45,483 nucleotides of DNA from positions 1 through 45,483 of the forward strand of contig JBIIKD010000001.1 in assembly GCA_044233345.1 (NCBI GenBank), in the 5' to 3' direction. The DNA is from Chlamydiia bacterium. Its GTDB lineage: Bacteria; Chlamydiota; Chlamydiia; Chlamydiales; 2-12-FULL-49-11. Within the stretch, counting starts at the first letter, position 1. Each line of letters starts with the position of its first letter. The notes beneath the pieces were generated by a model, which had not been told where the DNA came from, ran no database searches, and worked only from the letters and a program-made list of their open reading frames with translations. This document shows positions 23,212 through 45,224 of this stretch, in pieces. The position numbers and the translations under genes are program-made.

Positions 23212-24803
23212 TTGTTATTAATGATTTGAGCTACCAGCACGGAGATAGAGTCCTTTTTATGGGGGCAACCCTAAATTTGTCTAGCCGCCATCGCTACGCG
23301 ATTGTAGGCGCTAATGGGTGTGGAAAGTCAACCTTGCTTAAATTAGTTGCAGGGGATGTAACTCCCGATTTGGGCGAAATTATCCTTTCTAAGGGATCGC
23401 AAATCGGGTGGCTTAGACAAGATCAGTTCAAATATGAGGATGATCCTATTGTCGATGTGGTATTGATGGGGCGACAAGAGCTTTGGAAGTGGATGCAAAA
23501 GAAGAATGAGCTTTTGGAGTCAGAAGAATGGAGTGATGAAATTGGCCATGAAGTGGCAAAAGTTGAAGAGAAAATTGAGCACTTAGGGGGATATGCAGCC
23601 GAGGCAGAAGCAGAAAAACTTCTCATGGGACTTGGTATTGGCGTAAAATACCACAGTAAATCGCTTAAGACCCTTTCAGGGGGATTTAAATTGCGGGTGC
23701 TTTTAGCTCGTACTCTTTTTTCAAACCCGAATATTTTGCTTCTTGATGAACCAACAAACTACCTAGACATCGTTTCAATTGCATGGCTTGAAAGATACCT
23801 TAAATTTGATTTTTCTGGACTTCTCCTTTTTGTTAGCCATGATCGGGAATTTTTAAATCGTCTTTCTACTTGCGTTTTAGATATCGACTATGGAGAGATA
23901 CGGGAATATCCAGGCACATATGAGTCCTTTTTGGAGAAAAAGAAAGAGACGGTAGAAAAAATATTGCAAGAAAAAGCCCATATAGAAAGACGAGTTGCAG
24001 ATATTCAAACTTTTATTAACAAGTTTAAGTATAAAGCAACAAAGGCAAAGCAGTGCGCATCTCGTGAAAAAATGATCGACAAAATTGAGTGGCCCGATGT
24101 GAAGAAGAGCTCTAGAGTAGCACCTAAATTTCGTTTTCGAAAGAAGCGTCCCTCTGGGCAAACTGTTCTTCAAACAAAAGGGATCACAAAGGGATATGAA
24201 GATAAAATTGTTCTCTTTGATGTATCTTTCCGAATAGAGCGGGGAGAAAAAATCGCTATTATTGGTCCTAATGGAATTGGTAAATCTACACTTTTAAAGA
24301 TCCTTACCGAAAATTTGCAGGCAGATGAAGGCGCTTTTCAGTGGGGGTTTGAAACTCATGTTTCTTATTTTGCTCAAGAAGCTTCAGAGCTGCAAAAAAT
24401 GCCTTTACGAATCACTGATTGGTTAAAAGAGGCCACATCTGCCTCTGATCAAGAAGTGCGGGACGTTCTTGGCAGAATGCTTTTTTCTAATGATGATGCA
24501 AAAAAAACACTCAATATTTTAAGTGGTGGAGAGATAGCTCGCGTTGTGTTTGCTCGGATACTCATTGAACAGGGAAACGTCCTTCTTCTTGATGAGCCAA
24601 CAAACCACTTGGACATTGAATCGATCGAGGCTCTTTCAAATGCACTTAAGGAATATGAAGGGACCCTTCTTTTTGTAAGTCATGACCGCGCCTTTATTGC
24701 AGACCTCGCCGATCGAATTATTTTGATCACGCAAGAGGGAGTGCAAAACTTCCAAGGGACATTCGATGAATGTAAGGAAAAGTTAAACCTTCCTACGAGT
24801 TAA
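23208..24803 (+). CDS. ABC-F family ATPase (two ABC domains, no TM domain; EttA/YbiT-like)
   Basis: Two Walker A motifs (GANGCGKST, GPNGIGKST) and two LSGG signature motifs. 531 aa. TTG start with an AGGAG RBS. Confidence 0.88.
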   Translation: MIVINDLSYQHGDRVLFMGATLNLSSRHRYAIVGANGCGKSTLLKLVAGDVTPDLGEIILSKGSQIGWLRQDQFKYEDDPIVDVVLMGRQELWKWMQKKNELLESEEWSDEIGHEVAKVEEKIEHLGGYAAEAEAEKLLMGLGIGVKYHSKSLKTLSGGFKLRVLLARTLFSNPNILLLDEPTNYLDIVSIAWLERYLKFDFSGLLLFVSHDREFLNRLSTCVLDIDYGEIREYPGTYESFLEKKKETVEKILQEKAHIERRVADIQTFINKFKYKATKAKQCASREKMIDKIEWPDVKKSSRVAPKFRFRKKRPSGQTVLQTKGITKGYEDKIVLFDVSFRIERGEKIAIIGPNGIGKSTLLKILTENLQADEGAFQWGFETHVSYFAQEASELQKMPLRITDWLKEATSASDQEVRDVLGRMLFSNDDAKKTLNILSGGEIARVVFARILIEQGNVLLLDEPTNHLDIESIEALSNALKEYEGTLLFVSHDRAFIADLADRIILITQEGVQNFQGTFDECKEKLNLPTS

Positions 24804-26388
24804 TCCTTGCAATTTTTTGAATTTCTTCTGGATCTAAATTAAAAAGAATTACATCAACCCCTTTACTATTGAGTTCTCTTAATAGTTCAGGGGAAATGGT
24901 TATAAATGCATTATCCGCTATATTCAAGCTTTTTAAATGAGATAATGAGCTGAAATTTGTAGATATTTCATCAATTTCATTTTCTGAGCAGTTAAAATTT
25001 ATTAATCGATTGCAGTTTGTGAGTGATTTTGGAAGTTCCTCTAGAGCATTTTGGGAAATGTCTAACCACTCTAGTTGAGAGAGATTTCCTAAATTTGAAG
25101 GAAGTATGTAGAGATTGTTTTGCCTAAGCCAAAGTTCCTTTAAAGAGGTCATTTCACAAATCCTTTCATGAATTTGGGTAAGTTGATTGTGCTCCAAATT
25201 AAGAGAGCGCAGATCTTTTAAAGAAAGAAAGGCTGTCGGGTGTATTTCAGTAAGTTGATTGTAGGAAAGATCAAGAGAGTGTAATTCTGTAATAAAAGCT
25301 TCGTGGGAAAAAATGTGCGGTAAACAAGATAGGTTTAGTCCGCTCAGATCTAAACTATTTCCGTCGCTATCATTAATAAATTCCATAATGCGTAGCCATG
25401 CCATAAATCGGTTTTCTCCAGGGGCATCTTCTAAAGCCCAGCTATCGAGATTTGATATTGGATCTTCGAGCTGAATAAGATGGAGATTTTGTAGATCGTT
25501 AACTGACTTAGGGATCCCTTCCTTTTGTAGTTCGTTGCCGAATAGGGATAGTGTTTTTAAGCGTTCAACAAATACAACTCCGTTAAAAATATCGGGTAGA
25601 GAACGTAAGTGTAAATTGTTTAGATCTAATGTTAAGAGGGTTTTGTTTTCTATAAAATTAAGAATTCGATTTTTTGCCTCTTCTCGATTTTCTGTAGAGG
25701 AGCCTTCCATTGCCCAGGCATCTAATAAAGAGTATTCTAACTTAGGTTTTACACATATTATCGGAAGATCATCAGAAACTTCAATTTTAATAATTTGAAG
25801 AGCACTTAAGGATTTACTAGATATTTTAGAAAGGGCAGAAAGGGAAACCCCATTGATTTCTTGTAAGCATTGTAAATTTTCTAGTGAAGAAGGGAAGGAA
25901 GCGATTAGATTTCCATCTAAATTTAGAGTTTGTAATCTTGTTGTAAAAGCGCTATGTAAAAAAACATCAGGTAATGTAGTTAAATCAAAATCACGTAAAT
26001 CAAGAGTCGTTTCAGAAGGACTTTTGATAAATTCCTCAATCGCTAAAGCGGCAAGTCTTCTTTGTCCTTTGTTGGAGTATCCATCTTCAGTTTCAATCCA
26101 CGATGTTAATAAATGATCGATAGATTCCTCTCCGGAGGAAGAAAGTACAGTCCACTCTGATAAATGAATAGAGTCTGTAGATGCAAAATCTAATTGAATT
26201 GAGGGTGTTGAGGGGCTAACAGGTGAAGAAGGGGGAGTTTGAGTTGTTAATGCTCTTTTGAATGGAGCGGTTACTGCGTTTGCTATATCAGAAAATCGGT
26301 CCCAAAAAGAGGGCGTGGATGTTTGGGGGGCTTCTCTATTTTGGTTAAAATCGTTTATTGGTCTTCGTGAATAAAAAGCGGAATCCAT
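24793..26388 (-). CDS. leucine-rich repeat protein, T3SS-effector-like (IpaH/SspH-type LRR caps, no NEL domain)
   Basis: Pro/Ser-rich N terminus. Three ~70-aa modules each begin W..E...ENR..A..RI..FI....LDL..L.L..LP, followed by LxxLxLxxNxL repeats (LDLSYNQLTEI, LNLEHNQLTQI, LDISQNALEEL). Confidence 0.8.
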   Translation of the reverse strand: MDSAFYSRRPINDFNQNREAPQTSTPSFWDRFSDIANAVTAPFKRALTTQTPPSSPVSPSTPSIQLDFASTDSIHLSEWTVLSSSGEESIDHLLTSWIETEDGYSNKGQRRLAALAIEEFIKSPSETTLDLRDFDLTTLPDVFLHSAFTTRLQTLNLDGNLIASFPSSLENLQCLQEINGVSLSALSKISSKSLSALQIIKIEVSDDLPIICVKPKLEYSLLDAWAMEGSSTENREEAKNRILNFIENKTLLTLDLNNLHLRSLPDIFNGVVFVERLKTLSLFGNELQKEGIPKSVNDLQNLHLIQLEDPISNLDSWALEDAPGENRFMAWLRIMEFINDSDGNSLDLSGLNLSCLPHIFSHEAFITELHSLDLSYNQLTEIHPTAFLSLKDLRSLNLEHNQLTQIHERICEMTSLKELWLRQNNLYILPSNLGNLSQLEWLDISQNALEELPKSLTNCNRLINFNCSENEIDEISTNFSSLSHLKSLNIADNAFITISPELLRELNSKGVDVILFNLDPEEIQKIARINS

Positions 26389-26693
26389 AATAACTCACAA
26401 TTTAAAATAAATGTTTAATAAATAATAACATAATTAAAATTATAATTAAAGCGCATTTTTTGATTAATTAGCATGCAATAAATAATTAAGTTAAACTTAA
26501 GTCTTTAGTTTTAATGCATTTATGGAATAAAAAAATGTGCGCACCTTTAGTTTTTTTTATAAAATTTTTTTTATTTGATCGGGCTTTTTATTATAAACAA
26601 ACATTTGTTTATTACATGTAGATATTAAATTATTGATATTAACTTTGAATGCATGTACTATTTTCTTTTAATTATGTTCTTAGGAGAGTAATA

Positions 26694-28094
26694 GTGAAGA
26701 AGGCGCTCGCGAAATGTTTAATTCTATTAGTTGGTTTTTTTCAGCTCTTTTATATTCAAGGAGCTTTTGGTGGTTATCAAGAAAATAGTTCTGAGAAATT
26801 AGACCTCCCAAGTCAATTTCTTTGGGGAACAGCGGTTTCTGAGTTTCAAGTATCAGGTGCAGAAAATTGCCCAAACGCTCAGTGGGCTAATTGGGAATCT
26901 AAAGGAAGCCCTTATATTAAAACAGGAGATAGGACTGGTAAATCTGCAGACCATTGGAATCGATATAGAGAAGATATTCAAATAATGAAGGATATGGGGG
27001 TTAATTCATTCCGGTTTTCTATAGAATGGAGCGCTATTGAGCCTGAAGAGGGGGTGATTAATGAAGCTGCGTTGGATCATTATATGGACGTTTTTGATGC
27101 CTTAGATGAAGCGCAAATCACACCAATGGTTACTTTATATCATTTTACGCATCCAAAATGGTTTGAAGATTTAGGTGCCTTCGAAAAAGAGAAAAACATC
27201 GAATATTTCACTCGATTTTGTAAGCTTATTTTTCAAAGATTTGGAGATAGAGCTCCTCTTTGGTGCACAATGAACGAACCTAGCGTTATTGTTTTAGAAG
27301 GATATATGCTCGGAGAATTTCCTCCCGGAAAGAAAGATTATGCCCTGGCTGGAGAAGTTTATCGTAATTTGCTTTTTGCTCATTGTATGGTATACGAGGC
27401 CTTAAAGGCGATGCCTGGTGGAAAAGAGGCGCAAATAGGAATTGTTCATGCTTATTTAAAACTAAAGCCTTATCATACATGGAATCTAATTGAGTCTTAT
27501 CCTTGTTATTACATGAATGAAAATCTCAATAATGCAATGATGCGATTTCTAAAAACGGGCGTTTTTAACTTTTATTTTCCTTTTATGGTCGATATTTCGA
27601 CCCAATTTGTTGGTGCTCAAGAGATGTATGACTTTATTGGTCTTAACTACTACTCAAGCCCTTTAATTACGCTTCAGTTTTCTTTTTCCGATCCCCTTGT
27701 AAGCACTTGTTTTGAAGGTGAGATGATGACTGATATGCCTTATAGAAGTTATCCAAAAGGATTTTATGATGCTTTGGTGGATTGTAATTCTCTTCGTAAG
27801 CCAATCTATGTCACAGAAAATGGAATTGCGGATGCTAGAGATGATCGACGTAGTGATTTTATTGGAAGCTATCTTTCTGCTATGAATCAGGCAGTTAGAG
27901 ATGGGTGTGATGTAAGGGGATATTTTTATTGGTCCTTTATTGATAATTTTGAATGGGCAGAAGGATGGAAGATGAGATTTGGCCTTTATGAATTTGATCC
28001 TGTGACAAAGGAAAGAAAGTTAAAGGAAGGGGCAAAAACCTATCAAAATAAGATAAGAGAGGCTAAGCAACTTTCTTATGCACCTCGAGATTAA
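26694..28094 (+). CDS. glycoside hydrolase family 1 beta-glucosidase, secreted (signal peptide)
   Basis: GH1 catalytic motifs TMNEPS (acid/base) and YVTENGIAD (nucleophile), plus the FLWG.A.S.FQ N-terminal motif. GTG start at 26694, preceded by AGGAGA, gives the signal peptide VKKALAKCLILLVGFFQLFYIQGAFG. Confidence 0.8.
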   Translation: MKKALAKCLILLVGFFQLFYIQGAFGGYQENSSEKLDLPSQFLWGTAVSEFQVSGAENCPNAQWANWESKGSPYIKTGDRTGKSADHWNRYREDIQIMKDMGVNSFRFSIEWSAIEPEEGVINEAALDHYMDVFDALDEAQITPMVTLYHFTHPKWFEDLGAFEKEKNIEYFTRFCKLIFQRFGDRAPLWCTMNEPSVIVLEGYMLGEFPPGKKDYALAGEVYRNLLFAHCMVYEALKAMPGGKEAQIGIVHAYLKLKPYHTWNLIESYPCYYMNENLNNAMMRFLKTGVFNFYFPFMVDISTQFVGAQEMYDFIGLNYYSSPLITLQFSFSDPLVSTCFEGEMMTDMPYRSYPKGFYDALVDCNSLRKPIYVTENGIADARDDRRSDFIGSYLSAMNQAVRDGCDVRGYFYWSFIDNFEWAEGWKMRFGLYEFDPVTKERKLKEGAKTYQNKIREAKQLSYAPRD

Positions 28095-28507: not shown

Positions 28508-29872
28508 ATGGGATTGTCAAAATTAAAAAATCTTTTTCGCCTTTTTTATATAAAAAAAACACCGACTAAATCCCAAGAACAGGGTGTAAAAAAAGAAGAT
28601 TTTTTTTGTAATTTTCTTTGGGGATCGGCAGTTTCTGAATTTCAGGTATCGGGAGCAGAAAATTGCCCCCATTCTCAGTGGAGTGATTGGGAGTCAAGGG
28701 GAGTGCCCTATATTAAAAATGGTGATCGGAGTGAAAAATCGGTTGATCACTGGAATCTTTATAGAGAAGATATTCAAGAAATGAAGAAATTAGGGCTTAA
28801 TTCCTTTCGATTTTCGATAGAATGGAGCTCTATTGAGCCTAAAGAGGGTTGCTTTGATGAAACTGCTATAGACCATTATAAAGATGTTTTTGATGCTTTA
28901 GATGAATTTGAAATGACACCAATGGTTACCTTATATCATTTTACTCATCCGAAATGGTTTGAAGATTTAGGTGCTTTTGAAAAAAAAGAAAATATTGAAT
29001 ATTTTATTCGATTTTCTAAGTTTGTGTTTGAGCGATTCGGAAATAGAGCGCCTCTTTGGTGTACTATTAATGAGCCCTCTTCGATTGTTTTAATGGGATA
29101 TATAAGAGGGGAATTTCCTCCTGGCAAAAAAAAATTAGCCCTTGCAGGAGAGGTGTATAAACATCTTCTGGAGGGCCACTGTAGGCTATATGCGGCTTTA
29201 AAAGAGCTTCCTTTTGGAAAAGAAGCTAAAATAGGACTCGTTCATGGATATTTAAAGTTAGAGCCTTACCACTCATGGAATCCTATAGAAAGTATCCCTT
29301 GTTATTATATGACCAGAAATCTTCATGGAACAATGATGGAATTTCTTAGGAATGGAGTTTTTAACTATTACTTTCCCTTTAAGGCGAATGTTTTTGCCCG
29401 ATTTATTGGAGCTAAAGATATGTATGATTTCGTTGGGCTCAATTATTACACAAGAGCTGTGATTTCTATGCAGTGGTCTCTTTCAGAGCCTCTTATAGGT
29501 ACATGTTTTAAAAATGAAGTGATGACTGATATGCCTTATGGTATTTATCCAAAAGGGCTTTACGATGCACTATTGGATTGTAATACGTTAGGGAAACCAA
29601 TCTATATTACAGAAAATGGGATTGCAGATGCTGCAGATGATCGGCGTGATCGTTTTATCATTGAGCATATTTCTGCTATGAATCAGGCGATGCTAGATGG
29701 ATGTGATGTAAGAGGATATTTTTATTGGTCCTTTATCGATAGTTTTGAATGGAATAATGGAAAAGAAATGAAATTTGGTCTCTATGAATTTGATCCTACA
29801 ACAAAAGAAAGAAGACTAAAGAAGGGGGCTAAAATTTATCAAAACATTATAGAAGAAACAAAACAATATTGA
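28508..29872 (+). CDS. glycoside hydrolase family 1 beta-glucosidase paralog (no signal peptide)
   Basis: TINEPS and YITENGIAD motifs. About two-thirds to three-quarters aa identity to the upstream paralog by eye. Confidence 0.8.
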   Translation: MGLSKLKNLFRLFYIKKTPTKSQEQGVKKEDFFCNFLWGSAVSEFQVSGAENCPHSQWSDWESRGVPYIKNGDRSEKSVDHWNLYREDIQEMKKLGLNSFRFSIEWSSIEPKEGCFDETAIDHYKDVFDALDEFEMTPMVTLYHFTHPKWFEDLGAFEKKENIEYFIRFSKFVFERFGNRAPLWCTINEPSSIVLMGYIRGEFPPGKKKLALAGEVYKHLLEGHCRLYAALKELPFGKEAKIGLVHGYLKLEPYHSWNPIESIPCYYMTRNLHGTMMEFLRNGVFNYYFPFKANVFARFIGAKDMYDFVGLNYYTRAVISMQWSLSEPLIGTCFKNEVMTDMPYGIYPKGLYDALLDCNTLGKPIYITENGIADAADDRRDRFIIEHISAMNQAMLDGCDVRGYFYWSFIDSFEWNNGKEMKFGLYEFDPTTKERRLKKGAKIYQNIIEETKQY

Positions 29873-30051: not shown

Positions 30052-30555
30052 ATGAATCATTTTGCTCAAAAAGCAGCTTCCCTTTTTGCTTTGATGATTA
30101 CGATCATTTTAGTGATTACCTTATATATGTATCATATTGATAGGCAGGAGCCTTGCCCCCTTTGTTATCTACAGCAGGCTAGTATGATTGGAATTGCTTT
30201 AATGGAGCTTTTAAATGTACGATTTATGATTTGTATTCGGCATTATATAGGAGGGGTTTTATTTTCAGCTATTGGAGCAACGATTTCTTCTTATCAACTC
30301 TATTTAAATGATTTTTCTTTTTATTCCGTAGATGGAGTTAATTTTTTAGGTCTCCATCTTTTTGTTTGGTCATTGATCATTTTTTCCTGCAGTATAATAG
30401 GAATCATCCTTCTTCTTTTTCTTCCGAATGAACGGAAAAAGAAAGAAAAAATAGGAACGTTTGCTTGGATAGTAATTAGCTCATTCTTGATCGTAATGAT
30501 AGGAGTTGCAATTTCTTCAGCTCTTACAACATCTCATTTTAGCTGGTATGATTAA
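30052..30555 (+). CDS. dsbB: DsbB/BdbC-like disulfide bond formation protein
   Basis: 167 aa, 4 predicted TM helices. CPLCYLQQ motif in the first periplasmic loop resembles the DsbB/BdbC CxxC-Y-Q-R motif. Confidence 0.5.
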   Translation: MNHFAQKAASLFALMITIILVITLYMYHIDRQEPCPLCYLQQASMIGIALMELLNVRFMICIRHYIGGVLFSAIGATISSYQLYLNDFSFYSVDGVNFLGLHLFVWSLIIFSCSIIGIILLLFLPNERKKKEKIGTFAWIVISSFLIVMIGVAISSALTTSHFSWYD

Positions 30556-31115
30556 TAGTCCCATTTTGGAAAAGTAAGGAGCTTAGACTCTTGAACCTTT
30601 CTTGGTTTTGCAAGGGGAATCCCAAGTAGAAAGGAAATCCCTACATCAGTTGTTTGCATGCCAAGGGAACTTATCTTAGTGAAAATAGGGGTTTGAATTC
30701 CAAAACGAACTTGTGTGGGAGTAATAATTCCATACTCTGGAGCAAAACGAAACTCAAACCTTGATTGGCTAGAGTAAAGAGAGCCGACCGCTCTTGCAGA
30801 GGGGCCCAAAGCAATTGAAAAATACTGATTTCTTGGAAGTTGATGTGTGTAACTAGCGCCCCCATATAAAGTAAGTGTTGGGAGAGTAGTCATTCCACCA
30901 CCTAAAATTGGCTGGAAGATCCCGTTGTTTGTTTGATAACTGAAATTCATTGGTCGGTATTCCATTTGGAAGGAGGCTAAATCCCTCCCCCCAAACAGAT
31001 TCATTTCTTGGTCCCCTCCCATAAAATAAAGATAGGAGGAATTAGGAAGATCTGTGCTCGCCCATAGCGAACTAATCATAAAAAATGATGCAAATGCATT
31101 CCTAAATAGACTCAT
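30552..31115 (-). CDS. putative secreted / outer-membrane beta-barrel protein
   Basis: N-terminal signal-like segment, Gly/Tyr/Ser-rich amphipathic stretches, C-terminal aromatic residue (…KWDY). Confidence 0.3.
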   Translation of the reverse strand: MSLFRNAFASFFMISSLWASTDLPNSSYLYFMGGDQEMNLFGGRDLASFQMEYRPMNFSYQTNNGIFQPILGGGMTTLPTLTLYGGASYTHQLPRNQYFSIALGPSARAVGSLYSSQSRFEFRFAPEYGIITPTQVRFGIQTPIFTKISSLGMQTTDVGISFLLGIPLAKPRKVQESKLLTFPKWDY

Positions 31116-31125
31116 TTTAAACCTC

Positions 31126-31317
31126 TTAATCTTGGAAATCTCGATCCATTACAGTTTTGCGCTTGTCTGATTTTGCATTTTCGATTGCTTTATCGCAAGC
31201 TTTACGAATAATTTCTGACAAAGCTGAAGATGCAGAGGCTGCTGTATTCATTCCGCCTGTATCTTTGATGTATTTTTTCATTTTGCTGATTACAACTAAT
31301 GTCTCTTGTTCGCTCAT
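31126..31317 (-). CDS. histone-fold protein (archaeal-histone / Bd0055-like bacterial histone family)
   Basis: 63 aa. Helix-loop-helix-loop-helix pattern VISKMKKYIKDTG / GMNTAASA / SALSEIIRKACDKAIENAKSD / KRKTVMDRDF. Carries the (K/R)RKTV..D motif of H4 and archaeal HMf histones (GRKTIK.ED). Confidence 0.55.
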   Translation of the reverse strand: MSEQETLVVISKMKKYIKDTGGMNTAASASSALSEIIRKACDKAIENAKSDKRKTVMDRDFQD

Positions 31318-31398: not shown

Positions 31399-32691
31399 TT
31401 AGTAGATGTAGGGTAGAATCTTGTAGGGTACTTTTGAGCAATGTTCAGCCCAAGCATCGCCATATTTTTCTCTACACCGTTTATCATCTCGATTGGCACG
31501 ATCAAAGAGAAGAGCGGTTAGAAAAACTACATAAAAATAAGGAAAAAAATGACTGAAAAGAGCTGGAAGGGACCAGGAAAAAGCGGCTAGAATTTCAGGA
31601 ATATAGTGAAAGTGTCTTGCAAGACCCCAAAAACCAGAGGCGAGAAGAAGATTTTCTTTTTCTTGGCCACTATTTGTAATGTAAGTAGCAACAGTAAAAT
31701 CTGGGGAATTTTTCCAAATTTTTACATTTTCTCCATGTTCACGAAAAAGCATTCTTTGTCTATCGGCAAGATAGTTAGTTGCAATAAAAAGGGAACCTAG
31801 AAGAAATAGACCTAAAAGAAGAGTCGTTGACAGTTGTATTGGATGATGAACTAAATAAAAAGAGGTAGATGTGTACACTGAAGGGACCCACACAAGAGTT
31901 CCCCAGCAGATATAAAATCCTGCTTTATCATGCATGATGTCAATGGATCGAAGGTAGCCAGCTTCCCAATAAAAAAACTTTATCACGTAGATGATTTGTA
32001 AAGTAGTAGATAAAATTAGGCTATTTGAAAGACCATATAGTTCTGATTGAGCAGAGCAGTAGGATATAAGAAGAATAGGCCAACTCATCATTCCAAATCT
32101 ACAACTAGTGAATTGTTTTACGTCCCATCCACAAATTTTAGGGTAAAGTTCGGTGCCCCAGAAAAAATCGAAAGCAATATTTCCTGTAAACAGAGTGTCT
32201 GGACCAGAAGGAAAGAATTTTCCTTTTGCATAGAGAAGAATACAAAATAAGAAACTCCCTAAACAAAGAGCGCCAATAATTTCTCCAAAATGGAAATAAA
32301 TCAAGGTAGGAGAGAATAAATGTAGGCCAAATGAAAGAGTGACGTAGGTAAATATTGTAATCAATAAGGAAAGAAGACCGTTATCTTTATATTTGGGGAT
32401 ATAATGATTGGGAGTTTCTGGTCCTTTGATGATTTTTCCAGGAACCATTTTCAAAAGAGCAAGTTCAAAAAGAGCAAATACAATAATCGACGTCCAAGCT
32501 ACTTTAGATCCCAAAAAAACAGGAGCCCAAATCTGATACGTAGTAGAGAAAAAACCATGTTTTTGAAACAACATTAAAAGAAGTTTAAACGAGCCATCTA
32601 AAAAAGCCCCTGTATACCAAAGCAGTACAGCAAAGACCGGGCATGCAATGGTTAAAAAAATGGTCCCTAATGTATGACGAAAAAATCTCAT
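31399..32691 (-). CDS. sterol reductase family protein (ERG4/ERG24/7-dehydrocholesterol reductase-like)
   Basis: 430 aa, ~9 TM helices. C-terminal signature LLASGFWGLARHFHYIPEILAAFSWSLP ... GDAWAEHCSKVPYKILPYIY matches the eukaryotic sterol reductase family signature (LLxSGWWGxxRHxxY). Confidence 0.85.
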   Translation of the reverse strand: MRFFRHTLGTIFLTIACPVFAVLLWYTGAFLDGSFKLLLMLFQKHGFFSTTYQIWAPVFLGSKVAWTSIIVFALFELALLKMVPGKIIKGPETPNHYIPKYKDNGLLSLLITIFTYVTLSFGLHLFSPTLIYFHFGEIIGALCLGSFLFCILLYAKGKFFPSGPDTLFTGNIAFDFFWGTELYPKICGWDVKQFTSCRFGMMSWPILLISYCSAQSELYGLSNSLILSTTLQIIYVIKFFYWEAGYLRSIDIMHDKAGFYICWGTLVWVPSVYTSTSFYLVHHPIQLSTTLLLGLFLLGSLFIATNYLADRQRMLFREHGENVKIWKNSPDFTVATYITNSGQEKENLLLASGFWGLARHFHYIPEILAAFSWSLPALFSHFFPYFYVVFLTALLFDRANRDDKRCREKYGDAWAEHCSKVPYKILPYIY

Positions 32692-33608
32692 TCAATACCT
32701 ATATGTACCTTTAGATGGTTTTTTATTTGTTTTGCATCACGCGGATTTTTAGCAGTAACTGGCTCGATACAAACAAAAGAGGCTCCTTTAGGATGATATA
32801 ATTGAAAAGCATTTTCATCTGACGTGGTTTCATAGTTGATAATTAAAGAATATAATGCAGTTTCAAAAATCGCGTGACCTGTATAATTTGGTCGATTTGA
32901 TAAAAATCCAAAATCACTTTCTTCTTCTAAATTAAATGTGATTCCATGTCCATCTTTCCCCTCCCATTTTTTAGGAATAGGGCGCCATGTCCCCATATCA
33001 TTATAGGTGTTTTGAGAGTCTATTGATACTTTTGCGTCTCCTTGAGGAATCGCGTAGTAATAGTGTAGCCCTGCAATCGAGGGAGAACCGATGCTTTCTA
33101 CATCCATTTTAATATGTAGTCCATCTCTTAATAGAGAAGCCTTAAAAAGCATTTTAAAATCAAACCCTTCAAGAGCTTTTAGTGTAATTCCGTGAAAGGT
33201 ATCTTTCCCCGATAAATTTCCTTCAATTGCGGTTTCATTTGCATGCCAATTCCAAGGCACATACCGTGCGATTCCATGAGAAAAAGGTTCCTTGCATCCT
33301 TTCGCGCGCACTCGTTTAATGTGAGGGAAAATTGTTTCATCAGGAACGTGCGGAATAGAATTTTCTTTTCTATGATAAAAATGGGGCCCAATAATAGGTC
33401 CATATCCACCCATTTTTTCTTCGAATAGCCCTTTTGTTGATGGATCGATTAATTCTATATCGTCGATGGTCAGACTTTTCAAATTCATCCCATTTTCAGG
33501 AAGAAAAATAGCCTTCATCATTCGTCCATCAGTTTGAATTTGTTGCAAAATCACTTCTTTCATAAGATTTCTTTTCGTATCAAAAAAAAACTTACTACGC
33601 AAGAACAT
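32688..33608 (-). CDS. aldose 1-epimerase (galactose mutarotase-like) family protein
   Basis: HGIARYVPW (HGFAR..W substrate-His motif) and C-terminal FVCIEPVT (catalytic Glu motif). Its stop overlaps the sterol reductase start by 4 nt. N-terminal start is uncertain. Confidence 0.55.
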   Translation of the reverse strand: MFLRSKFFFDTKRNLMKEVILQQIQTDGRMMKAIFLPENGMNLKSLTIDDIELIDPSTKGLFEEKMGGYGPIIGPHFYHRKENSIPHVPDETIFPHIKRVRAKGCKEPFSHGIARYVPWNWHANETAIEGNLSGKDTFHGITLKALEGFDFKMLFKASLLRDGLHIKMDVESIGSPSIAGLHYYYAIPQGDAKVSIDSQNTYNDMGTWRPIPKKWEGKDGHGITFNLEEESDFGFLSNRPNYTGHAIFETALYSLIINYETTSDENAFQLYHPKGASFVCIEPVTAKNPRDAKQIKNHLKVHIGIE

Positions 33609-33644
33609 ATACGTAATTTAGAGAAGTTTGATAGAGTAGTTGCT

Positions 33645-43511: not shown

Positions 43512-45224
43512 TTATTCGTTTCCTGCTTTCTTCTCTGGCGGCAAGGTATAATCATTAGCAATGTCTGTGAGGCCGGCTGAGTTTAGAAGATCTCGATATT
43601 TTGAAAGTCTATCTGATTCAGTACGCATAAAATCTTCTCTGAGTTGGGTGAAATTTGTGATCAAAAGGTGAAAGTCTTGTTTTCTAATTGCTAAAAGTTC
43701 GCAATCTTCTATACATCTTACTGTAGCTGAGCGACGTTTTTCTTTTAAAAGAGCCATTTCCCCAAAATATTGTCCTTGTTCGAGGGTTGCGATTGGAATT
43801 TCTTTGCCATCTTTTGTTTCTAAAACAGAGACTTTCCCTTTTGCAATGATGTATAGATAATCACCTACATCTCCTTTATGAAAAATTGTTTCGCCTGAGG
43901 CATAGTGAAGGTGGTTAATTCCACTTCGATACTCTATTTTCAATTGGACTGGCTCTTGAGGAACAATAAAATCAAGTAACCAGGTGATGAATACTTTAAT
44001 TTTTCTATTTACTCCAGGCAGTTTAATCCAATAGATAAAACGCCAAGCAATCCAAGCGATAAAGCCAGAAAGTTTGATGAATCCAAACATTTCGGCTACA
44101 GCTCTTTTATGACCAAGTGCAGCCATCATTCCAAGAGCTGTAAACGAGAATTTTTTTAAGGGGCCTTTTTCTTTTATCGAAGAAAATATATTTTCCGCCA
44201 CACACTTTCCTTGTCTTACTGCAAATTGAGCTGTAGGCGGGCAATAATGTAACTCTATTTTTGCAGGGACTGCTGCGCAATCTCCAAGAGCCCAAATATT
44301 TTTTGTTCCTTTTACAAGTAAGGTTTCATCAGTAAGAATAAGATCTTTTATTTTTTCAAACGGAAGTGTCTCTATTAATGGATTGCAACTCGAAGGTACT
44401 GTGGAGACAATGGTGCTTGAAGGAATACGCTTTCCATTGTCAAGAATCGCTTCATAGGGCGTTGCTGATCTTAAGTGTGTATTAAAAAGGATCTGCACAC
44501 CCCGTTTCTCTAAGATTTTTGCGCAATATTTTCCAAGAGAGGGGGGCAGTTCTTTATAAACAAGCCGATCTTTACTATGTATTAGATAGACACTAATCTC
44601 TTTAGGATCAACTAACGGATACATTTTTATAATTTTTCTTGCAAAGTCGTTGATTTCAGCAACCACTTCAACGCCAGAAAATCCTCCTCCTCCCACGATA
44701 AAGGTTAGAAGTTGTTTTCTTACTTTAGGGTTATCTTCTTGCGCTGCAGTTTCAATTACATCTATAATTCTATTACGGATCTTTAGGGCATCAGCTAAGT
44801 TTTTAAAACTTAAGGAGTGTTCATGAAGACCTCCGGGACTATTTCTAAAGTCTGTTACATTACCAAGAGCTAATACAAGGTGATCATAATGTACTCGTAA
44901 ATCGGTATGATCAAAGTTTGGGGAAAGTGTAACCATCTGATTTTCAATGTCAATCTCTGATATTTCTCGTACGTAAATATGGGTATGAGGAAGTAATTCT
45001 CTTAGCGCACTTACAGAATCAAGAATTCCTATCGAACCGCCTACGATTTCAGCAAGCATAGGATGAAAAACAAAATAGTTATCTCTATTCACGAGAACAA
45101 TTTCTATTTCATCTCTACAATGTTTAGTGAGTTTTTCTAAACGGCGAGCAGCATAGACTCCTCCAAAACCTCCTCCAAGAATAAGAATAGTTTTTTTCTC
45201 TAGAGGTTTTTGCCGTTTTTTCAT
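43512..45224 (-). CDS. ndh: type II NADH:quinone oxidoreductase (NDH-2) fused to a C-terminal cyclic-nucleotide-binding domain
   Basis: Two dinucleotide-binding motifs (ILGGGFGGVYAA, VGGGGFSGVEV), NDH-2 C-terminal amphipathic anchor region, then a CAP-family cNMP-binding domain (FHKGDVGDYLYIIAKGKV...YFGEMALL...RSATVRC). Confidence 0.8.
   Translation of the reverse strand: MKKRQKPLEKKTILILGGGFGGVYAARRLEKLTKHCRDEIEIVLVNRDNYFVFHPMLAEIVGGSIGILDSVSALRELLPHTHIYVREISEIDIENQMVTLSPNFDHTDLRVHYDHLVLALGNVTDFRNSPGGLHEHSLSFKNLADALKIRNRIIDVIETAAQEDNPKVRKQLLTFIVGGGGFSGVEVVAEINDFARKIIKMYPLVDPKEISVYLIHSKDRLVYKELPPSLGKYCAKILEKRGVQILFNTHLRSATPYEAILDNGKRIPSSTIVSTVPSSCNPLIETLPFEKIKDLILTDETLLVKGTKNIWALGDCAAVPAKIELHYCPPTAQFAVRQGKCVAENIFSSIKEKGPLKKFSFTALGMMAALGHKRAVAEMFGFIKLSGFIAWIAWRFIYWIKLPGVNRKIKVFITWLLDFIVPQEPVQLKIEYRSGINHLHYASGETIFHKGDVGDYLYIIAKGKVSVLETKDGKEIPIATLEQGQYFGEMALLKEKRRSATVRCIEDCELLAIRKQDFHLLITNFTQLREDFMRTESDRLSKYRDLLNSAGLTDIANDYTLPPEKKAGNE

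What the first reader, a model, noticed from the sequence alone, without database searches (positions are those of the whole stretch)
31399..33608. Eukaryote-type sterol reductase translationally coupled to an aldose-1-epimerase-like gene
The C-terminal LLxSG(F/W)WGxxRHxxY ... VPYKxLPxI(Y/F) signature is diagnostic of the ERG4/ERG24/DHCR7 family. That family is essentially eukaryotic and has been reported in only a few bacteria (Coxiella, Protochlamydia-like organisms), where HGT from a host is presumed. The 4-nt overlap with an upstream mutarotase-like gene suggests an operon. The physiological substrate in a sterol-non-synthesising symbiont is unknown (host sterol modification?).
Basis: partly seen in the sequence, partly recalled or inferred. 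Interest (0 to 1): 0.6.

Follow-up and report, generated by a model that had tools for sequence, protein, structure and literature searches.

The report
Chlamydial sterol reductase–mutarotase operon
A bacterium that probably lives inside eukaryotic cells carries a plant-type sterol delta-7 reductase gene fused by a 4-base overlap to a sugar-mutarotase-like gene; the reductase is a long-known oddity of such bacteria, and only its recurring pairing with the mutarotase gene seems unreported in the papers I searched.

Summary
ORF 31399-32691(-) is a full-length ERG4/ERG24 sterol reductase: Pfam E=1e-71, the predicted fold matches the solved bacterial reductase 4QUV (TM 0.83-0.91), and all three C-terminal motifs are present. 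It is 56% identical to a plant delta-7 reductase, 37% to human DHCR7 and 37% to a C14 reductase. That places it in the bacterial/plant DHCR7-DWF5 clade described in Protochlamydia, Coxiella and Legionella since 2008-2009.

The family is no longer rare in bacteria. I found over 1,500 homologues; the source names attached to the best hits point to Chlamydiota, Legionella and Gammaproteobacteria.

The upstream ORF (likely 32688-33563) has a mutarotase fold (pLDDT 95; top 15 PDB matches are all aldose-1-epimerase-like) and keeps the catalytic His/His/Asp/Glu. Its stop overlaps the reductase start (ATGA).

This arrangement is conserved across a clade. A second, distant clade has the reverse order, also tightly coupled. 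Most loci carrying the mutarotase-like gene lack the reductase nearby, and a nested subclade has lost it cleanly.

Verdict: a new member of a known kind, with a lineage-specific operon whose functional meaning is unproven. No enzyme activity or transcription was tested. Interest is low to moderate.

The parts
31399..32691 (-). Sterol reductase gene (430 aa), ERG4/ERG24 family, bacterial/plant delta-7 (DHCR7/DWF5) clade. It is a polytopic membrane protein with its NADPH-pocket motifs in the C-terminal third.
   Evidence: Pfam PF01222 E=1.2e-71, full length. PDB 4quv E=1.2e-53. AF2 pLDDT 94.4. Foldseek 4quv E=1.4e-22, TM 0.83/0.91. 56% identity to Hevea delta-7 reductase and 37% to human DHCR7. 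Motif positions.
32688..33563 (-). Aldose-1-epimerase (mutarotase)-fold gene, 291 aa from the ATG at 33563. The longest ORF reaches 33608. No signal peptide is evident by eye, so it is probably cytoplasmic.
   Evidence: The protein itself has no Pfam hit, but 28 of 50 family members hit PF01263. The family profile hits Slr1438 (3k25) at 3.7e-6 and YeaD at 7e-3. AF2 pLDDT 95.2. The top 15 Foldseek PDB hits are all mutarotase-like. H61, H96, H167, D217 and E267 are invariant.
32688..32691 (-). ATGA stop/start overlap between the epimerase-like gene and the reductase gene; a likely site of translational coupling.
   Evidence: Sequence. The same ATGA overlap occurs in L002, L003, L006 (L007 shares its gene coordinates) and L008; L005 has a 13-nt overlap.
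33564..33644 (.). 81-nt divergent intergenic region between the epimerase-like gene and rlmD (likely start 33645). This is the presumed promoter region for the operon.
   Evidence: Gene starts inferred from homologue lengths and from the JGI gene calls on the same contig. The sigma-70 consensus scan finds nothing here, which is uninformative.
31126..31317 (-). 63-aa HBb-type bacterial histone gene, 81 nt downstream of the reductase on the same strand. It may be co-transcribed.
   Evidence: PDB 8cmp/8fvx E about 5e-13. No terminator-like site lies between 31115 and 33563 on the minus strand. A homologue follows the reductase in L002, L003, L004, L006 and L007, and follows the epimerase-like gene directly in L010.
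30552..31115 (-). 187-aa orphan ORF with a hydrophobic N-terminus, starting 10 nt after the histone gene. It is possibly the last gene of the same transcription unit.
   Evidence: ORF. No Pfam or NCBIfam family. No homologue in any of the 89 fetched loci.

Best explanation
The window is a stretch of ordinary bacterial chromosome. Its origin in an environmental member of the Chlamydiota is inferred from the nearest named homologues.

Two genes form the head of a minus-strand operon, presumably transcribed from the 81-nt region shared with the divergent rlmD gene. Ribosomes finishing the first gene at TGA can restart on the overlapping ATG of the second.

Gene 1 is a cytoplasmic mutarotase-family enzyme. 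It keeps the catalytic His/His/Asp/Glu set, so it probably interconverts the alpha and beta anomers of a hexose or hexose phosphate. The substrate is not resolved.

Gene 2 is an integral-membrane enzyme that presumably uses NADPH, as the family does. It belongs to the bacterial/plant delta-7 (DHCR7/DWF5) clade. No other sterol-synthesis gene is in the window, and published chlamydial genomes have only this one step. The reductase therefore most likely saturates the C7=C8 bond of delta-5,7 sterols taken from the eukaryotic host. An example would be ergosterol, the major sterol of Acanthamoeba.

The pairing of the two genes is a lineage-specific operon. I judge the link between them to be indirect at most: shared expression, or sugar catabolism feeding NADPH supply.

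Shown here: gene identities, folds, conserved residues, the overlap, and the distribution of the gene order. Inferred: co-transcription, delta-7 regiochemistry, host sterols as substrate, and any metabolic link.
For: Reductase identity:
- establish family, motifs and fold.
- Clade placement: 56% identity to a plant delta-7 reductase, against 37% to human DHCR7 and 36.9% to the C14 reductase MaSR1.
- Named homologues in Legionella and Parachlamydiaceae are 54-57% identical. These are the proteins Moliner 2009 placed with delta-7 reductases and plants at 100% support (PMC2667531).
- The NADPH-pocket residue R395 of MaSR1 (PMC4951196) aligns with invariant R398. MaSR1 N359 aligns with H362, and the plant enzyme also has His there.

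Epimerase identity.

Operon:
- ATGA overlap and no terminator-like site between the genes.
- The epimerase-then-reductase order with overlap is conserved in L002, L003, L005, L006, L007 and L008, at 52-62% epimerase identity.
- A distant clade (L053, L055, L056, L062, L071) has reductase-then-epimerase, with a GAGG-type ribosome-binding site and a start codon 9-13 nt after the stop.

Lineage specificity:
- Of 80 loci seeded on the epimerase-like gene, the reductase lies downstream in 1 of 49 assessable and upstream in 5 of 51.
- The commonest context is rpsT / pseudouridine synthase / DUF3592 / epimerase / UPF0242.
- L009-L014 form a subclade nested inside the window's clade that lacks the reductase. 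There the epimerase-like gene abuts a GH1 glucosidase and an MFS transporter in L009 and L011.
- The reductase sits in unrelated contexts in L001, L088 and L089.

Context:
- The rest of the window is housekeeping genes, with no cyclase, CYP51 or sterol methyltransferase.
- GC content at the reductase (0.35-0.36) matches the window.
- Ergosterol is the major Acanthamoeba sterol (PMC5557935).
Against: - No activity has been shown for any bacterial member of this delta-7 clade. Coxiella CBU1158 was still uncharacterised in 2022 (PMC8787468).
- Identity to human DHCR7 (37%) is no higher than to a C14 reductase (37%). My tree was rooted on that one C14 sequence, had no C24 reference and no support values. 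The delta-7 assignment therefore rests on the plant similarity and on published trees of homologues.
- The host and the remainder of the genome are unknown.
- Tight coupling in two opposite gene orders, in two separate clades, is more than random placement should give. This argues for a closer functional tie than 'indirect'.
- Transcription was not tested, and the promoter scan is uninformative.
Confidence: 0.6

Rival explanations
1. The two genes form a true functional module. The mutarotase-fold enzyme and the reductase would act in one pathway on host-derived sterol conjugates. One version: steryl beta-glucosides are cleaved by the neighbouring GH1 glucosidases, the released glucose is anomerised, and the sterol is reduced. 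Another version: the epimerase acts on glucose-6-phosphate to speed NADPH production specifically for the reductase.
For: Two monophyletic, distant clades keep the genes tightly coupled but in opposite orders. Chance placement in genomes of roughly one to a few thousand genes would rarely do this. Two GH1 genes and MFS transporters lie close by in the window. A GH1 gene directly follows the epimerase-like gene in L009 and L011, and lies one or two genes further on in L005, L012 and L014. By sequence profile, the only PDB matches at E<=0.01 are Slr1438 and YeaD; YeaD resembles the yeast hexose-6-phosphate mutarotase Ymr099c, which appears among the fold matches.
Against: About 88% of assessable epimerase loci lack an adjacent reductase. 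The reductase occurs without the epimerase-like gene nearby in L001, L088 and L089. A nested subclade lost the reductase and kept the epimerase-like gene. The reverse-order clade has no GH1 gene in the fetched flanks. No mutarotase-fold protein is known to me to act on sterols. Both sub-hypotheses are speculation, with no direct test here.
Confidence: 0.2
2. The protein is a sterol-reductase-family enzyme, but its bond or substrate differs from what the delta-7 label implies. It could have C14, C24 or 8(14) chemistry, or act on a non-sterol isoprenoid. This rival overlaps with the operon parts of the best explanation.
For: Coxiella CBU1206 complements yeast ergosterol synthesis, yet no evidence was found that it makes cholesterol during infection (PMC8787468). 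A bacterial family member was recently shown to carry out an unexpected 8,14 reduction with isomerisation (PMC13277303). Identity to human DHCR7 equals identity to the C14 reductase MaSR1, both 37%.
Against: 56% identity to a plant protein that UniRef names 7-dehydrocholesterol reductase, extending across the motif-bearing C-terminal part. Published trees place the 54-57%-identical Legionella, Protochlamydia and Coxiella proteins inside the delta-7 cluster (PMC2667531). From my own recollection, not checked here, the Arabidopsis enzyme of this clade has proven delta-7 activity.
Confidence: 0.15
3. The protein is not a sterol reductase but an isoprenylcysteine carboxyl methyltransferase-like or DUF1295-type membrane protein.
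For: One Legionella homologue carries the source name 'putative protein-S-isoprenylcysteine methyltransferase'. There is a weak DUF1295 match, E=0.0086 at 16 bits, below its cut-off of 20.4.
Against: Full-length ERG4_ERG24 match at 242 bits. The model superposes on 4QUV at TM 0.83/0.91, while ICMT structures score E=0.68-1.1 at TM 0.25-0.32.
Confidence: 0.01
4. The gene is eukaryotic contamination, or a very recent capture from the current host.
For: The family is best known from eukaryotes.
Against: The gene overlaps a bacterial gene by 4 nt. It sits among IF-2, NusA, S1, EF-P, AccBC, tRNAs and RlmD. Its GC content matches the window. The same arrangement recurs in several independent assemblies at only 55-62% protein identity.
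Confidence: 0.01

Closest known systems
Bacterial delta-7 sterol reductase homologues of amoeba-associated bacteria: Protochlamydia amoebophila putative DHCR7 (gi 46446854), Legionella drancourtii FJ197317, Coxiella burnetii CBU1158
   Same: Same ERG4/ERG24 family and same plant-affiliated delta-7 clade. The window protein is 54-57% identical to named Legionella and Parachlamydiaceae members. That matches the 57-59% those proteins share with each other (PMC2667531). All are 'orphan' enzymes in organisms lacking the rest of the pathway, and none has a proven function.
   Different: This is a different lineage; the best hit outside its own species-level cluster is 84% identical, then 62%. Here the gene is translationally coupled to a mutarotase-like gene and followed by a histone gene. 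None of the papers I searched or read describes this context.
Plant delta-7 sterol reductase (DWARF5/DWF5; Hevea brasiliensis A0A6A6MB56 as the sequence actually compared)
   Same: 56% identity over 261 residues, including LLxSGxWGxxRHFHY and the RDDxRC motif. Both have His at the position where MaSR1 and human DHCR7 have Asn.
   Different: The plant enzyme works in the ER as one step of a complete phytosterol and brassinosteroid pathway. The bacterial gene stands alone in a bacterial operon.
MaSR1, delta-14 sterol reductase of Methylomicrobium alcaliphilum (PDB 4QUV)
   Same: The only solved close relative. Same fold (TM 0.83/0.91, rmsd 3.0 A). HMMER E=1.2e-53. The NADPH-pocket arginine is conserved (R395 in MaSR1, R398 here).
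   Different: 37% identity. It belongs to the C14-reductase branch and comes from a methanotroph, a group that makes its own sterols (PMC13277303).
Slr1438 / YeaD / Ymr099c branch of the aldose-1-epimerase superfamily (PDB 3K25, 2HTA, 2CIQ)
   Same: Same mutarotase fold. The motifs sHGiaRY, GlHYY and CiEP align with HGFAR, GFHPYF and CLEP, that is the catalytic His, His and Glu.
   Different: Only 13-17% identity to any solved structure. The window protein itself falls below Pfam detection. The substrate is unknown; Ymr099c acts on hexose-6-phosphates (PMC5902678) and GalM on free aldoses.
Coxiella burnetii Stmp1 (CBU1206)
   Same: A bacterial ERG4/ERG24-family enzyme used by an intracellular bacterium to alter host sterol homeostasis. 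It is the only functionally studied example (PMC8787468).
   Different: Stmp1 is the delta-24-type paralogue, not the delta-7 type. No epimerase partner is mentioned in that paper.

Membership tests
ERG4/ERG24 sterol reductase family (Pfam PF01222) | Full-length match to the family profile above the curated cut-off | tested here: met
   E=1.2e-71, 242.2 bits against a cut-off of 27; residues 5-430 align to profile positions 8-432 of 432.
ERG4/ERG24 sterol reductase family (Pfam PF01222) | C-terminal signature motifs LLxSGxWGxxRHxxY and RDxxxCxxKYG | tested here: met
   LLASGFWGLARHFHY at 349-363 and RDDKRCREKYG at 401-411. L350, R359, H360, Y363, R398 and Y410 are invariant across 40 homologues including human DHCR7.
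ERG4/ERG24 sterol reductase family (Pfam PF01222) | Polytopic helical membrane fold of the solved reductase MaSR1 | tested here: met
   AF2 pLDDT 94.4, pTM 0.92. Foldseek against 4quv gives E=1.4e-22, TM 0.83/0.91, rmsd 3.0 A; the next hit (ICMT) has E=0.68.
ERG4/ERG24 sterol reductase family (Pfam PF01222) | NADPH-pocket residues equivalent to MaSR1 N359 and R395 (PMC4951196) | tested here: inconclusive
   R395 aligns with R398, which is invariant. N359 aligns with H362, not Asn, but the plant delta-7 enzyme has the same His. Whether His substitutes functionally was not tested.
ERG4/ERG24 sterol reductase family (Pfam PF01222) | NADPH-dependent reduction of a sterol C=C bond | not testable with these tools
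   Needs heterologous expression and sterol analysis.
Delta-7 sterol reductase subfamily (DHCR7/DWF5) | Closer to delta-7 reductases than to C14 or C24 reductases | tested here: inconclusive
   56% identity and 316 bits to plant delta-7 reductase. 37% and 234 bits to human DHCR7, whose sequence was verified by exact look-up. 36.9% to the C14 reductase MaSR1. No C24 (ERG4) or eukaryotic C14 reference was available, and the NJ tree has no support values. Published trees put the 54-57%-identical bacterial homologues in the delta-7 cluster with plants at 100% support (PMC2667531).
Delta-7 sterol reductase subfamily (DHCR7/DWF5) | Reduces the C7=C8 bond of delta-5,7 sterols | not testable with these tools
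   No bacterial member of this clade has demonstrated activity; CBU1158 is uncharacterised (PMC8787468).
Aldose 1-epimerase / galactose mutarotase-like superfamily (Pfam PF01263) | Homology detectable by sequence profile | tested here: met
   The window protein alone gives no PF01263 hit and only E=0.076 to 3k25. However, 28 of 50 close family members hit PF01263, best 7.1e-12. The family profile hits Slr1438 at 3.7e-6 and YeaD at 7e-3.
Aldose 1-epimerase / galactose mutarotase-like superfamily (Pfam PF01263) | Beta-sandwich mutarotase fold | tested here: met
   AF2 pLDDT 95.2. The top 15 Foldseek PDB hits are all mutarotase-like proteins, E from 1.7e-15 to 1e-8, query-normalised TM 0.54-0.67.
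Aldose 1-epimerase / galactose mutarotase-like superfamily (Pfam PF01263) | Catalytic His / His / Glu (plus Asp) of mutarotases | tested here: met
   H96, H167, D217 and E267 are invariant in 50 homologues. They align with the HGFAR, GFHPYF and CLEP motifs of Slr1438 and YeaD. That these are the catalytic positions is from my knowledge of GalM.
Aldose 1-epimerase / galactose mutarotase-like superfamily (Pfam PF01263) | Mutarotase activity and substrate identity | not testable with these tools
   Needs a polarimetry or NMR exchange assay, as used in PMC5902678.
Bacterial operon (co-transcribed, translationally coupled pair) | Same strand, overlapping stop/start, no intervening terminator | tested here: met
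   ATGA overlap at 32688-32691. No terminator-like site on the minus strand between 31115 and 33563.
Bacterial operon (co-transcribed, translationally coupled pair) | Adjacency conserved beyond close relatives | tested here: inconclusive
   Conserved in one clade at 52-62% identity, and in reverse order in a second clade. Absent from about 88% of assessable epimerase loci and from the reductase loci L001, L088 and L089.
Bacterial operon (co-transcribed, translationally coupled pair) | A single transcript spans both genes | not testable with these tools
   No transcript data are available.

The most novel reading that the evidence does not exclude
The mutarotase-fold protein and the delta-7-type reductase could be a dedicated two-enzyme module that intracellular chlamydiae use to remodel host sterols or steryl glycosides. 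In the window's lineage the neighbouring GH1 glucosidases and MFS transporters would belong to it. The module would have been assembled or kept together in two clades with opposite gene orders. If so, it would give the first functional handle on the 'orphan' bacterial delta-7 reductases, whose role has been unknown since their discovery.
Probability: 0.12. Interest if true: 0.6.

Novelty: new member of a known kind. Interest (0 to 1): 0.3.

Why it matters
The reductase adds one more member to a clade already documented in Protochlamydia, Coxiella and Legionella, and now seen in many metagenome assemblies. Its presence is therefore not news.

Two things remain open. No bacterial member of this clade has a known activity or physiological role. 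The only functional work on a bacterial relative, Coxiella Stmp1 (the delta-24 type), shows that such enzymes can be essential for intracellular growth.

The recurrent tight coupling to a catalytically intact mutarotase-like gene, in two gene orders, is a small, testable lead on that question. It also gives a natural presence/absence contrast: sister lineages with and without the reductase at the same locus.

Tried and rejected
- Pfam and NCBIfam on the epimerase-like protein alone gave no usable hit. A family alignment and a structure prediction were needed.
- The genome-contig scan with the reductase returned only one locus, a Parachlamydia MAG without the pairing.
- Naming representatives from the 50%-cluster search by exact look-up produced few names. 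It yielded only Hevea, Fabomonas and a Salinispira MAG.
It was not an exact database match, so I discarded it and did not use it. The recalled human DHCR7 was an exact match to DHCR7_HUMAN, so I used it.
- The afdb50 fold library was unavailable.
- The sigma-70 promoter scan found fewer sites than shuffled controls and none in the divergent intergenic region, so it is uninformative.
- Rfam found only the four tRNAs and no regulatory RNA near the locus.
- The organism name could not be recovered from cluster look-ups. The Chlamydiota assignment is inferred from named homologues and from the chlamydia-typical UPF0242 neighbour in related loci.
- The ICMT-like and eukaryotic-contamination readings were rejected (and the context calls).
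- The substrate of the epimerase-like protein (free aldose or hexose phosphate) could not be resolved from sequence or fold ranking.
Full report
**1. Observation**

The ORF list shows two minus-strand ORFs exactly where the finding places them: 31399..32691 (430 aa) and 32688..33608 (306 aa). They share the four bases ATGA, so the TGA stop of the upstream gene overlaps the ATG of the downstream gene.

Homologues of the upstream protein are 286-293 aa long and cover 100% of a 291-aa form. The ATG at 33563 (MKEVIL...) is therefore the likelier start. The longer form would run into rlmD on the other strand. JGI's gene call on the same contig starts rlmD at the equivalent of 33645. This leaves an 81-nt divergent intergenic region.

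The quoted motifs are present: LLASGFWGLARHFHY (349-363), RDDKRCREKYG (401-411) and VPYKILPYIY (421-430).

**2. The reductase**

Family membership is secure:
- Pfam ERG4_ERG24 matches end to end, E=1.2e-71 and 242 bits against a cut-off of 27.
- The best solved relative is MaSR1, the Methylomicrobium delta-14 sterol reductase 4QUV, at E=1.2e-53.
- An AlphaFold model built on 40 homologues has pLDDT 94.4.
- The MaSR1 NADPH-pocket residue R395 (PMC4951196) aligns with invariant R398. MaSR1 N359 aligns with H362, and a plant delta-7 reductase has the same His.

Subfamily placement is less direct:
- The protein is 56% identical over 261 residues to a Hevea protein that UniRef names 7-dehydrocholesterol reductase.
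- It is 37% identical to human DHCR7, whose sequence I confirmed by exact look-up.
- It is 36.9% identical to MaSR1.
- Its best database hits are 54-62% identical. Where named, they come from Chlamydiota, Parachlamydiaceae, Simkaniaceae, Legionella and Gammaproteobacteria, mostly labelled '7-dehydrocholesterol reductase'.

This reproduces the pattern published for Legionella drancourtii, Protochlamydia amoebophila and Coxiella burnetii. Those proteins are 57-59% identical to one another and 52-54% to plant DWF5. They cluster with delta-7 reductases and plants at 100% support (PMC2667531; also PMC2490706). A rough NJ tree places the window protein inside this bacterial group, with the plant sequence just outside it. 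That tree has no support values and lacks ERG4 and eukaryotic C14 references. The delta-7 assignment is therefore well motivated but not independently proven here.

**3. Rarity**

The word-indexed search found 1,558 proteins at E<=1e-10. The exhaustive search of 50%-identity cluster representatives found 2,848 clusters at E<=0.001 and 428 at E<=1e-30.

**4. The upstream gene**

On its own, the protein escapes Pfam and NCBIfam and only grazes PDB 3K25 at E=0.076. Family-level evidence is much stronger:
- It has about 300 homologues. Of 50 aligned members, 28 hit PF01263 Aldose_epim, best 7e-12.
- The family profile hits Slr1438 (3.7e-6) and YeaD (7e-3).
- The AlphaFold model is excellent, pLDDT 95.2. 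Its top 15 PDB matches are all mutarotase-like proteins: Slr1438, YphB, GalM, YeaD, the yeast hexose-6-phosphate mutarotase Ymr099c and human GALM.
- H96, H167, D217 and E267 are invariant. They sit in the motifs that align with HGFAR, GFHPYF and CLEP of Slr1438 and YeaD. From my knowledge of GalM, these are the positions of the mutarotase acid/base residues.

So 'aldose-1-epimerase-like' is correct, and the enzyme is probably active. The substrate, free aldose or hexose phosphate, cannot be decided from these data.

**5. Is the pairing meaningful?**

Evidence for an operon in the window's lineage:
- Six loci fetched through reductase or epimerase homologues (L002, L003, L005, L006, L007, L008) share the order rlmD-NUDIX (divergent) / epimerase / reductase. 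Their proteins are 46-62% (reductase) and 52-62% (epimerase-like) identical to the window's.
- The ATGA overlap is present in L002, L003, L006 (L007 shares its gene coordinates) and L008. L005 has a 13-nt overlap.
- No terminator-like site separates the genes.

An unbiased sample seeded on the epimerase family gives a wider picture. It comprises 80 metagenome loci:
- The reductase lies downstream in 1 of 49 assessable loci and upstream in 5 of 51.
- The five upstream cases (L053, L055, L056, L062, L071) form a separate, distant clade. Their order is reductase then epimerase, with a GAGG-type ribosome-binding site and a start codon 9-13 nt after the reductase stop.
- Most other loci place the epimerase-like gene in a housekeeping context of rpsT, pseudouridine synthase, DUF3592, epimerase and UPF0242.
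- Within the window's own clade, L009-L014 form a nested monophyletic group that lacks the reductase cleanly. In L009 and L011 the epimerase-like gene is followed directly by a GH1 glucosidase and an MFS transporter. In L010 it is followed directly by the small histone gene. A single loss is the simplest reading.
- Conversely, the reductase sits in unrelated neighbourhoods in a Parachlamydia MAG (L001), in Chlamydiales STE3 (L089) and in L088, a 1.78-Mb contig whose reductase groups with the Legionella and gammaproteobacterial sequences in the NJ tree.

Taken together, the operon is real as gene architecture and stable within a lineage. Its recurrence in the opposite order elsewhere is more than random placement should give. 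It is not a general property of either gene.

**6. Context**

The remainder of the window is ordinary bacterial chromosome. It encodes IF-2, NusA, S1, EF-P, AccB/AccC, ribulose-phosphate 3-epimerase, four tRNAs, RlmD, a NUDIX hydrolase, MFS transporters, two GH1 glucosidases, an LRR protein and a DsbB-like protein.

No squalene or oxidosqualene cyclase, CYP51 or sterol methyltransferase is present. GC content at the reductase (0.35-0.36) equals the window average. This excludes contamination and very recent transfer.

**7. Mechanism proposed**

Shown here: gene identities, folds, conserved residues, the overlap, and the distribution of the gene order.

Inferred:
- Transcription starts in the rlmD-proximal intergenic region.
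- Translation re-initiates at ATGA.
- The reductase inserts into the bacterial inner membrane. It uses NADPH to saturate C7=C8 of delta-5,7 sterols acquired from the eukaryotic host. Ergosterol, the major Acanthamoeba sterol (PMC5557935), is such a diene.
- The mutarotase serves sugar or sugar-phosphate metabolism. It may be linked to the nearby GH1/MFS genes, and only indirectly to NADPH supply.

The main rival is a direct two-enzyme module acting on host sterols or steryl glycosides. I rate it at about 0.2, because of the two-order recurrence. A different regiochemistry for the reductase remains possible. No bacterial member of this clade has been assayed (PMC8787468), and bacterial relatives have surprised before (PMC13277303).

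**8. Novelty and verdict**

The reductase is a new member of a kind known since the Protochlamydia genome and the 2008-2009 analyses. The coupling to a mutarotase-like gene was not mentioned in any of the papers I searched or read. It is a modest, testable lead, not a discovery.

Interest is 0.3.

Noticed in passing
window 31126-31317 (-): A 63-aa ORF lies 81 nt downstream of the reductase. It is a clear homologue of the Bdellovibrio histone HBb (PDB 8cmp/8fvx, E about 5e-13) and carries the RKTxxxD motif (KRKTVMDRD). JGI names it histone H3/H4. It has 73 homologues. 'Bacterial dimer' histones are already reported in Chlamydiota (PMC11390915), and a histone-fold protein is highly expressed in Waddlia (PMC10627809), so this is a known kind. 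A homologue follows the reductase in L002, L003, L004, L006 and L007, and follows the epimerase-like gene directly in L010.
   Followed up: yes
window 30552-31115 (-): A 187-aa ORF starts 10 nt after the histone gene. It has a hydrophobic N-terminus, no Pfam or NCBIfam family, and no homologue in any of the 89 fetched loci. It is a lineage-specific orphan, possibly an envelope protein.
   Followed up: partly
window 26649-28094 (+) and 28508-29872 (+): Two paralogous GH1 beta-glucosidase genes lie next to the DsbB-like gene, with MFS transporters nearby. In relatives that lack the reductase, a GH1 gene and an MFS gene follow the epimerase-like gene, directly in L009 and L011 and one ORF further on in L012 and L014. 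The mutarotase may therefore belong functionally to a beta-glucoside module.
   Followed up: partly
L009-L014 compared with L002-L008 and the window: There is a clean presence/absence polymorphism of the reductase at the same locus. The reductase-lacking loci form a monophyletic group nested inside the reductase-bearing clade in the epimerase tree, which implies one loss. In L009 only about 50 nt separate the epimerase-like gene from the next gene, with no remnant of the reductase.
   Followed up: yes
window 43512-45224 (-); also L038, L073, L074, L078, L080, L083: An NDH-2-type pyridine-nucleotide oxidoreductase is fused to a C-terminal cyclic-nucleotide-binding domain. In six other loci a homologue sits immediately downstream of the epimerase-like gene. 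In the window it lies about 10 kb away.
   Followed up: no
L006 6676-9503: In one relative, the histone gene downstream of the reductase is followed by a 585-aa BBE/FAD_binding_4-type oxidase and a lactonase. This looks like a sugar-oxidation pair and may relate to the mutarotase.
   Followed up: no
window 24793-26388 (-): A 531-aa leucine-rich-repeat protein, a type I recall as common in amoeba symbionts. This is consistent with a host-associated lifestyle.
   Followed up: no
P0015: One reductase homologue, 58% identical, is labelled in NCBI as coming from a Nitrosarchaeum MAG. In the NJ tree it sits among chlamydial sequences, so the contig is probably mis-binned.
   Followed up: no
L088 3265-5296: In L088, whose reductase groups with the Legionella and gammaproteobacterial sequences in the NJ tree, the reductase is immediately preceded by an OmpA-like beta-barrel gene. 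A PI-PLC-like gene lies two genes further upstream. This is a different, membrane- and lipid-flavoured context.
   Followed up: no
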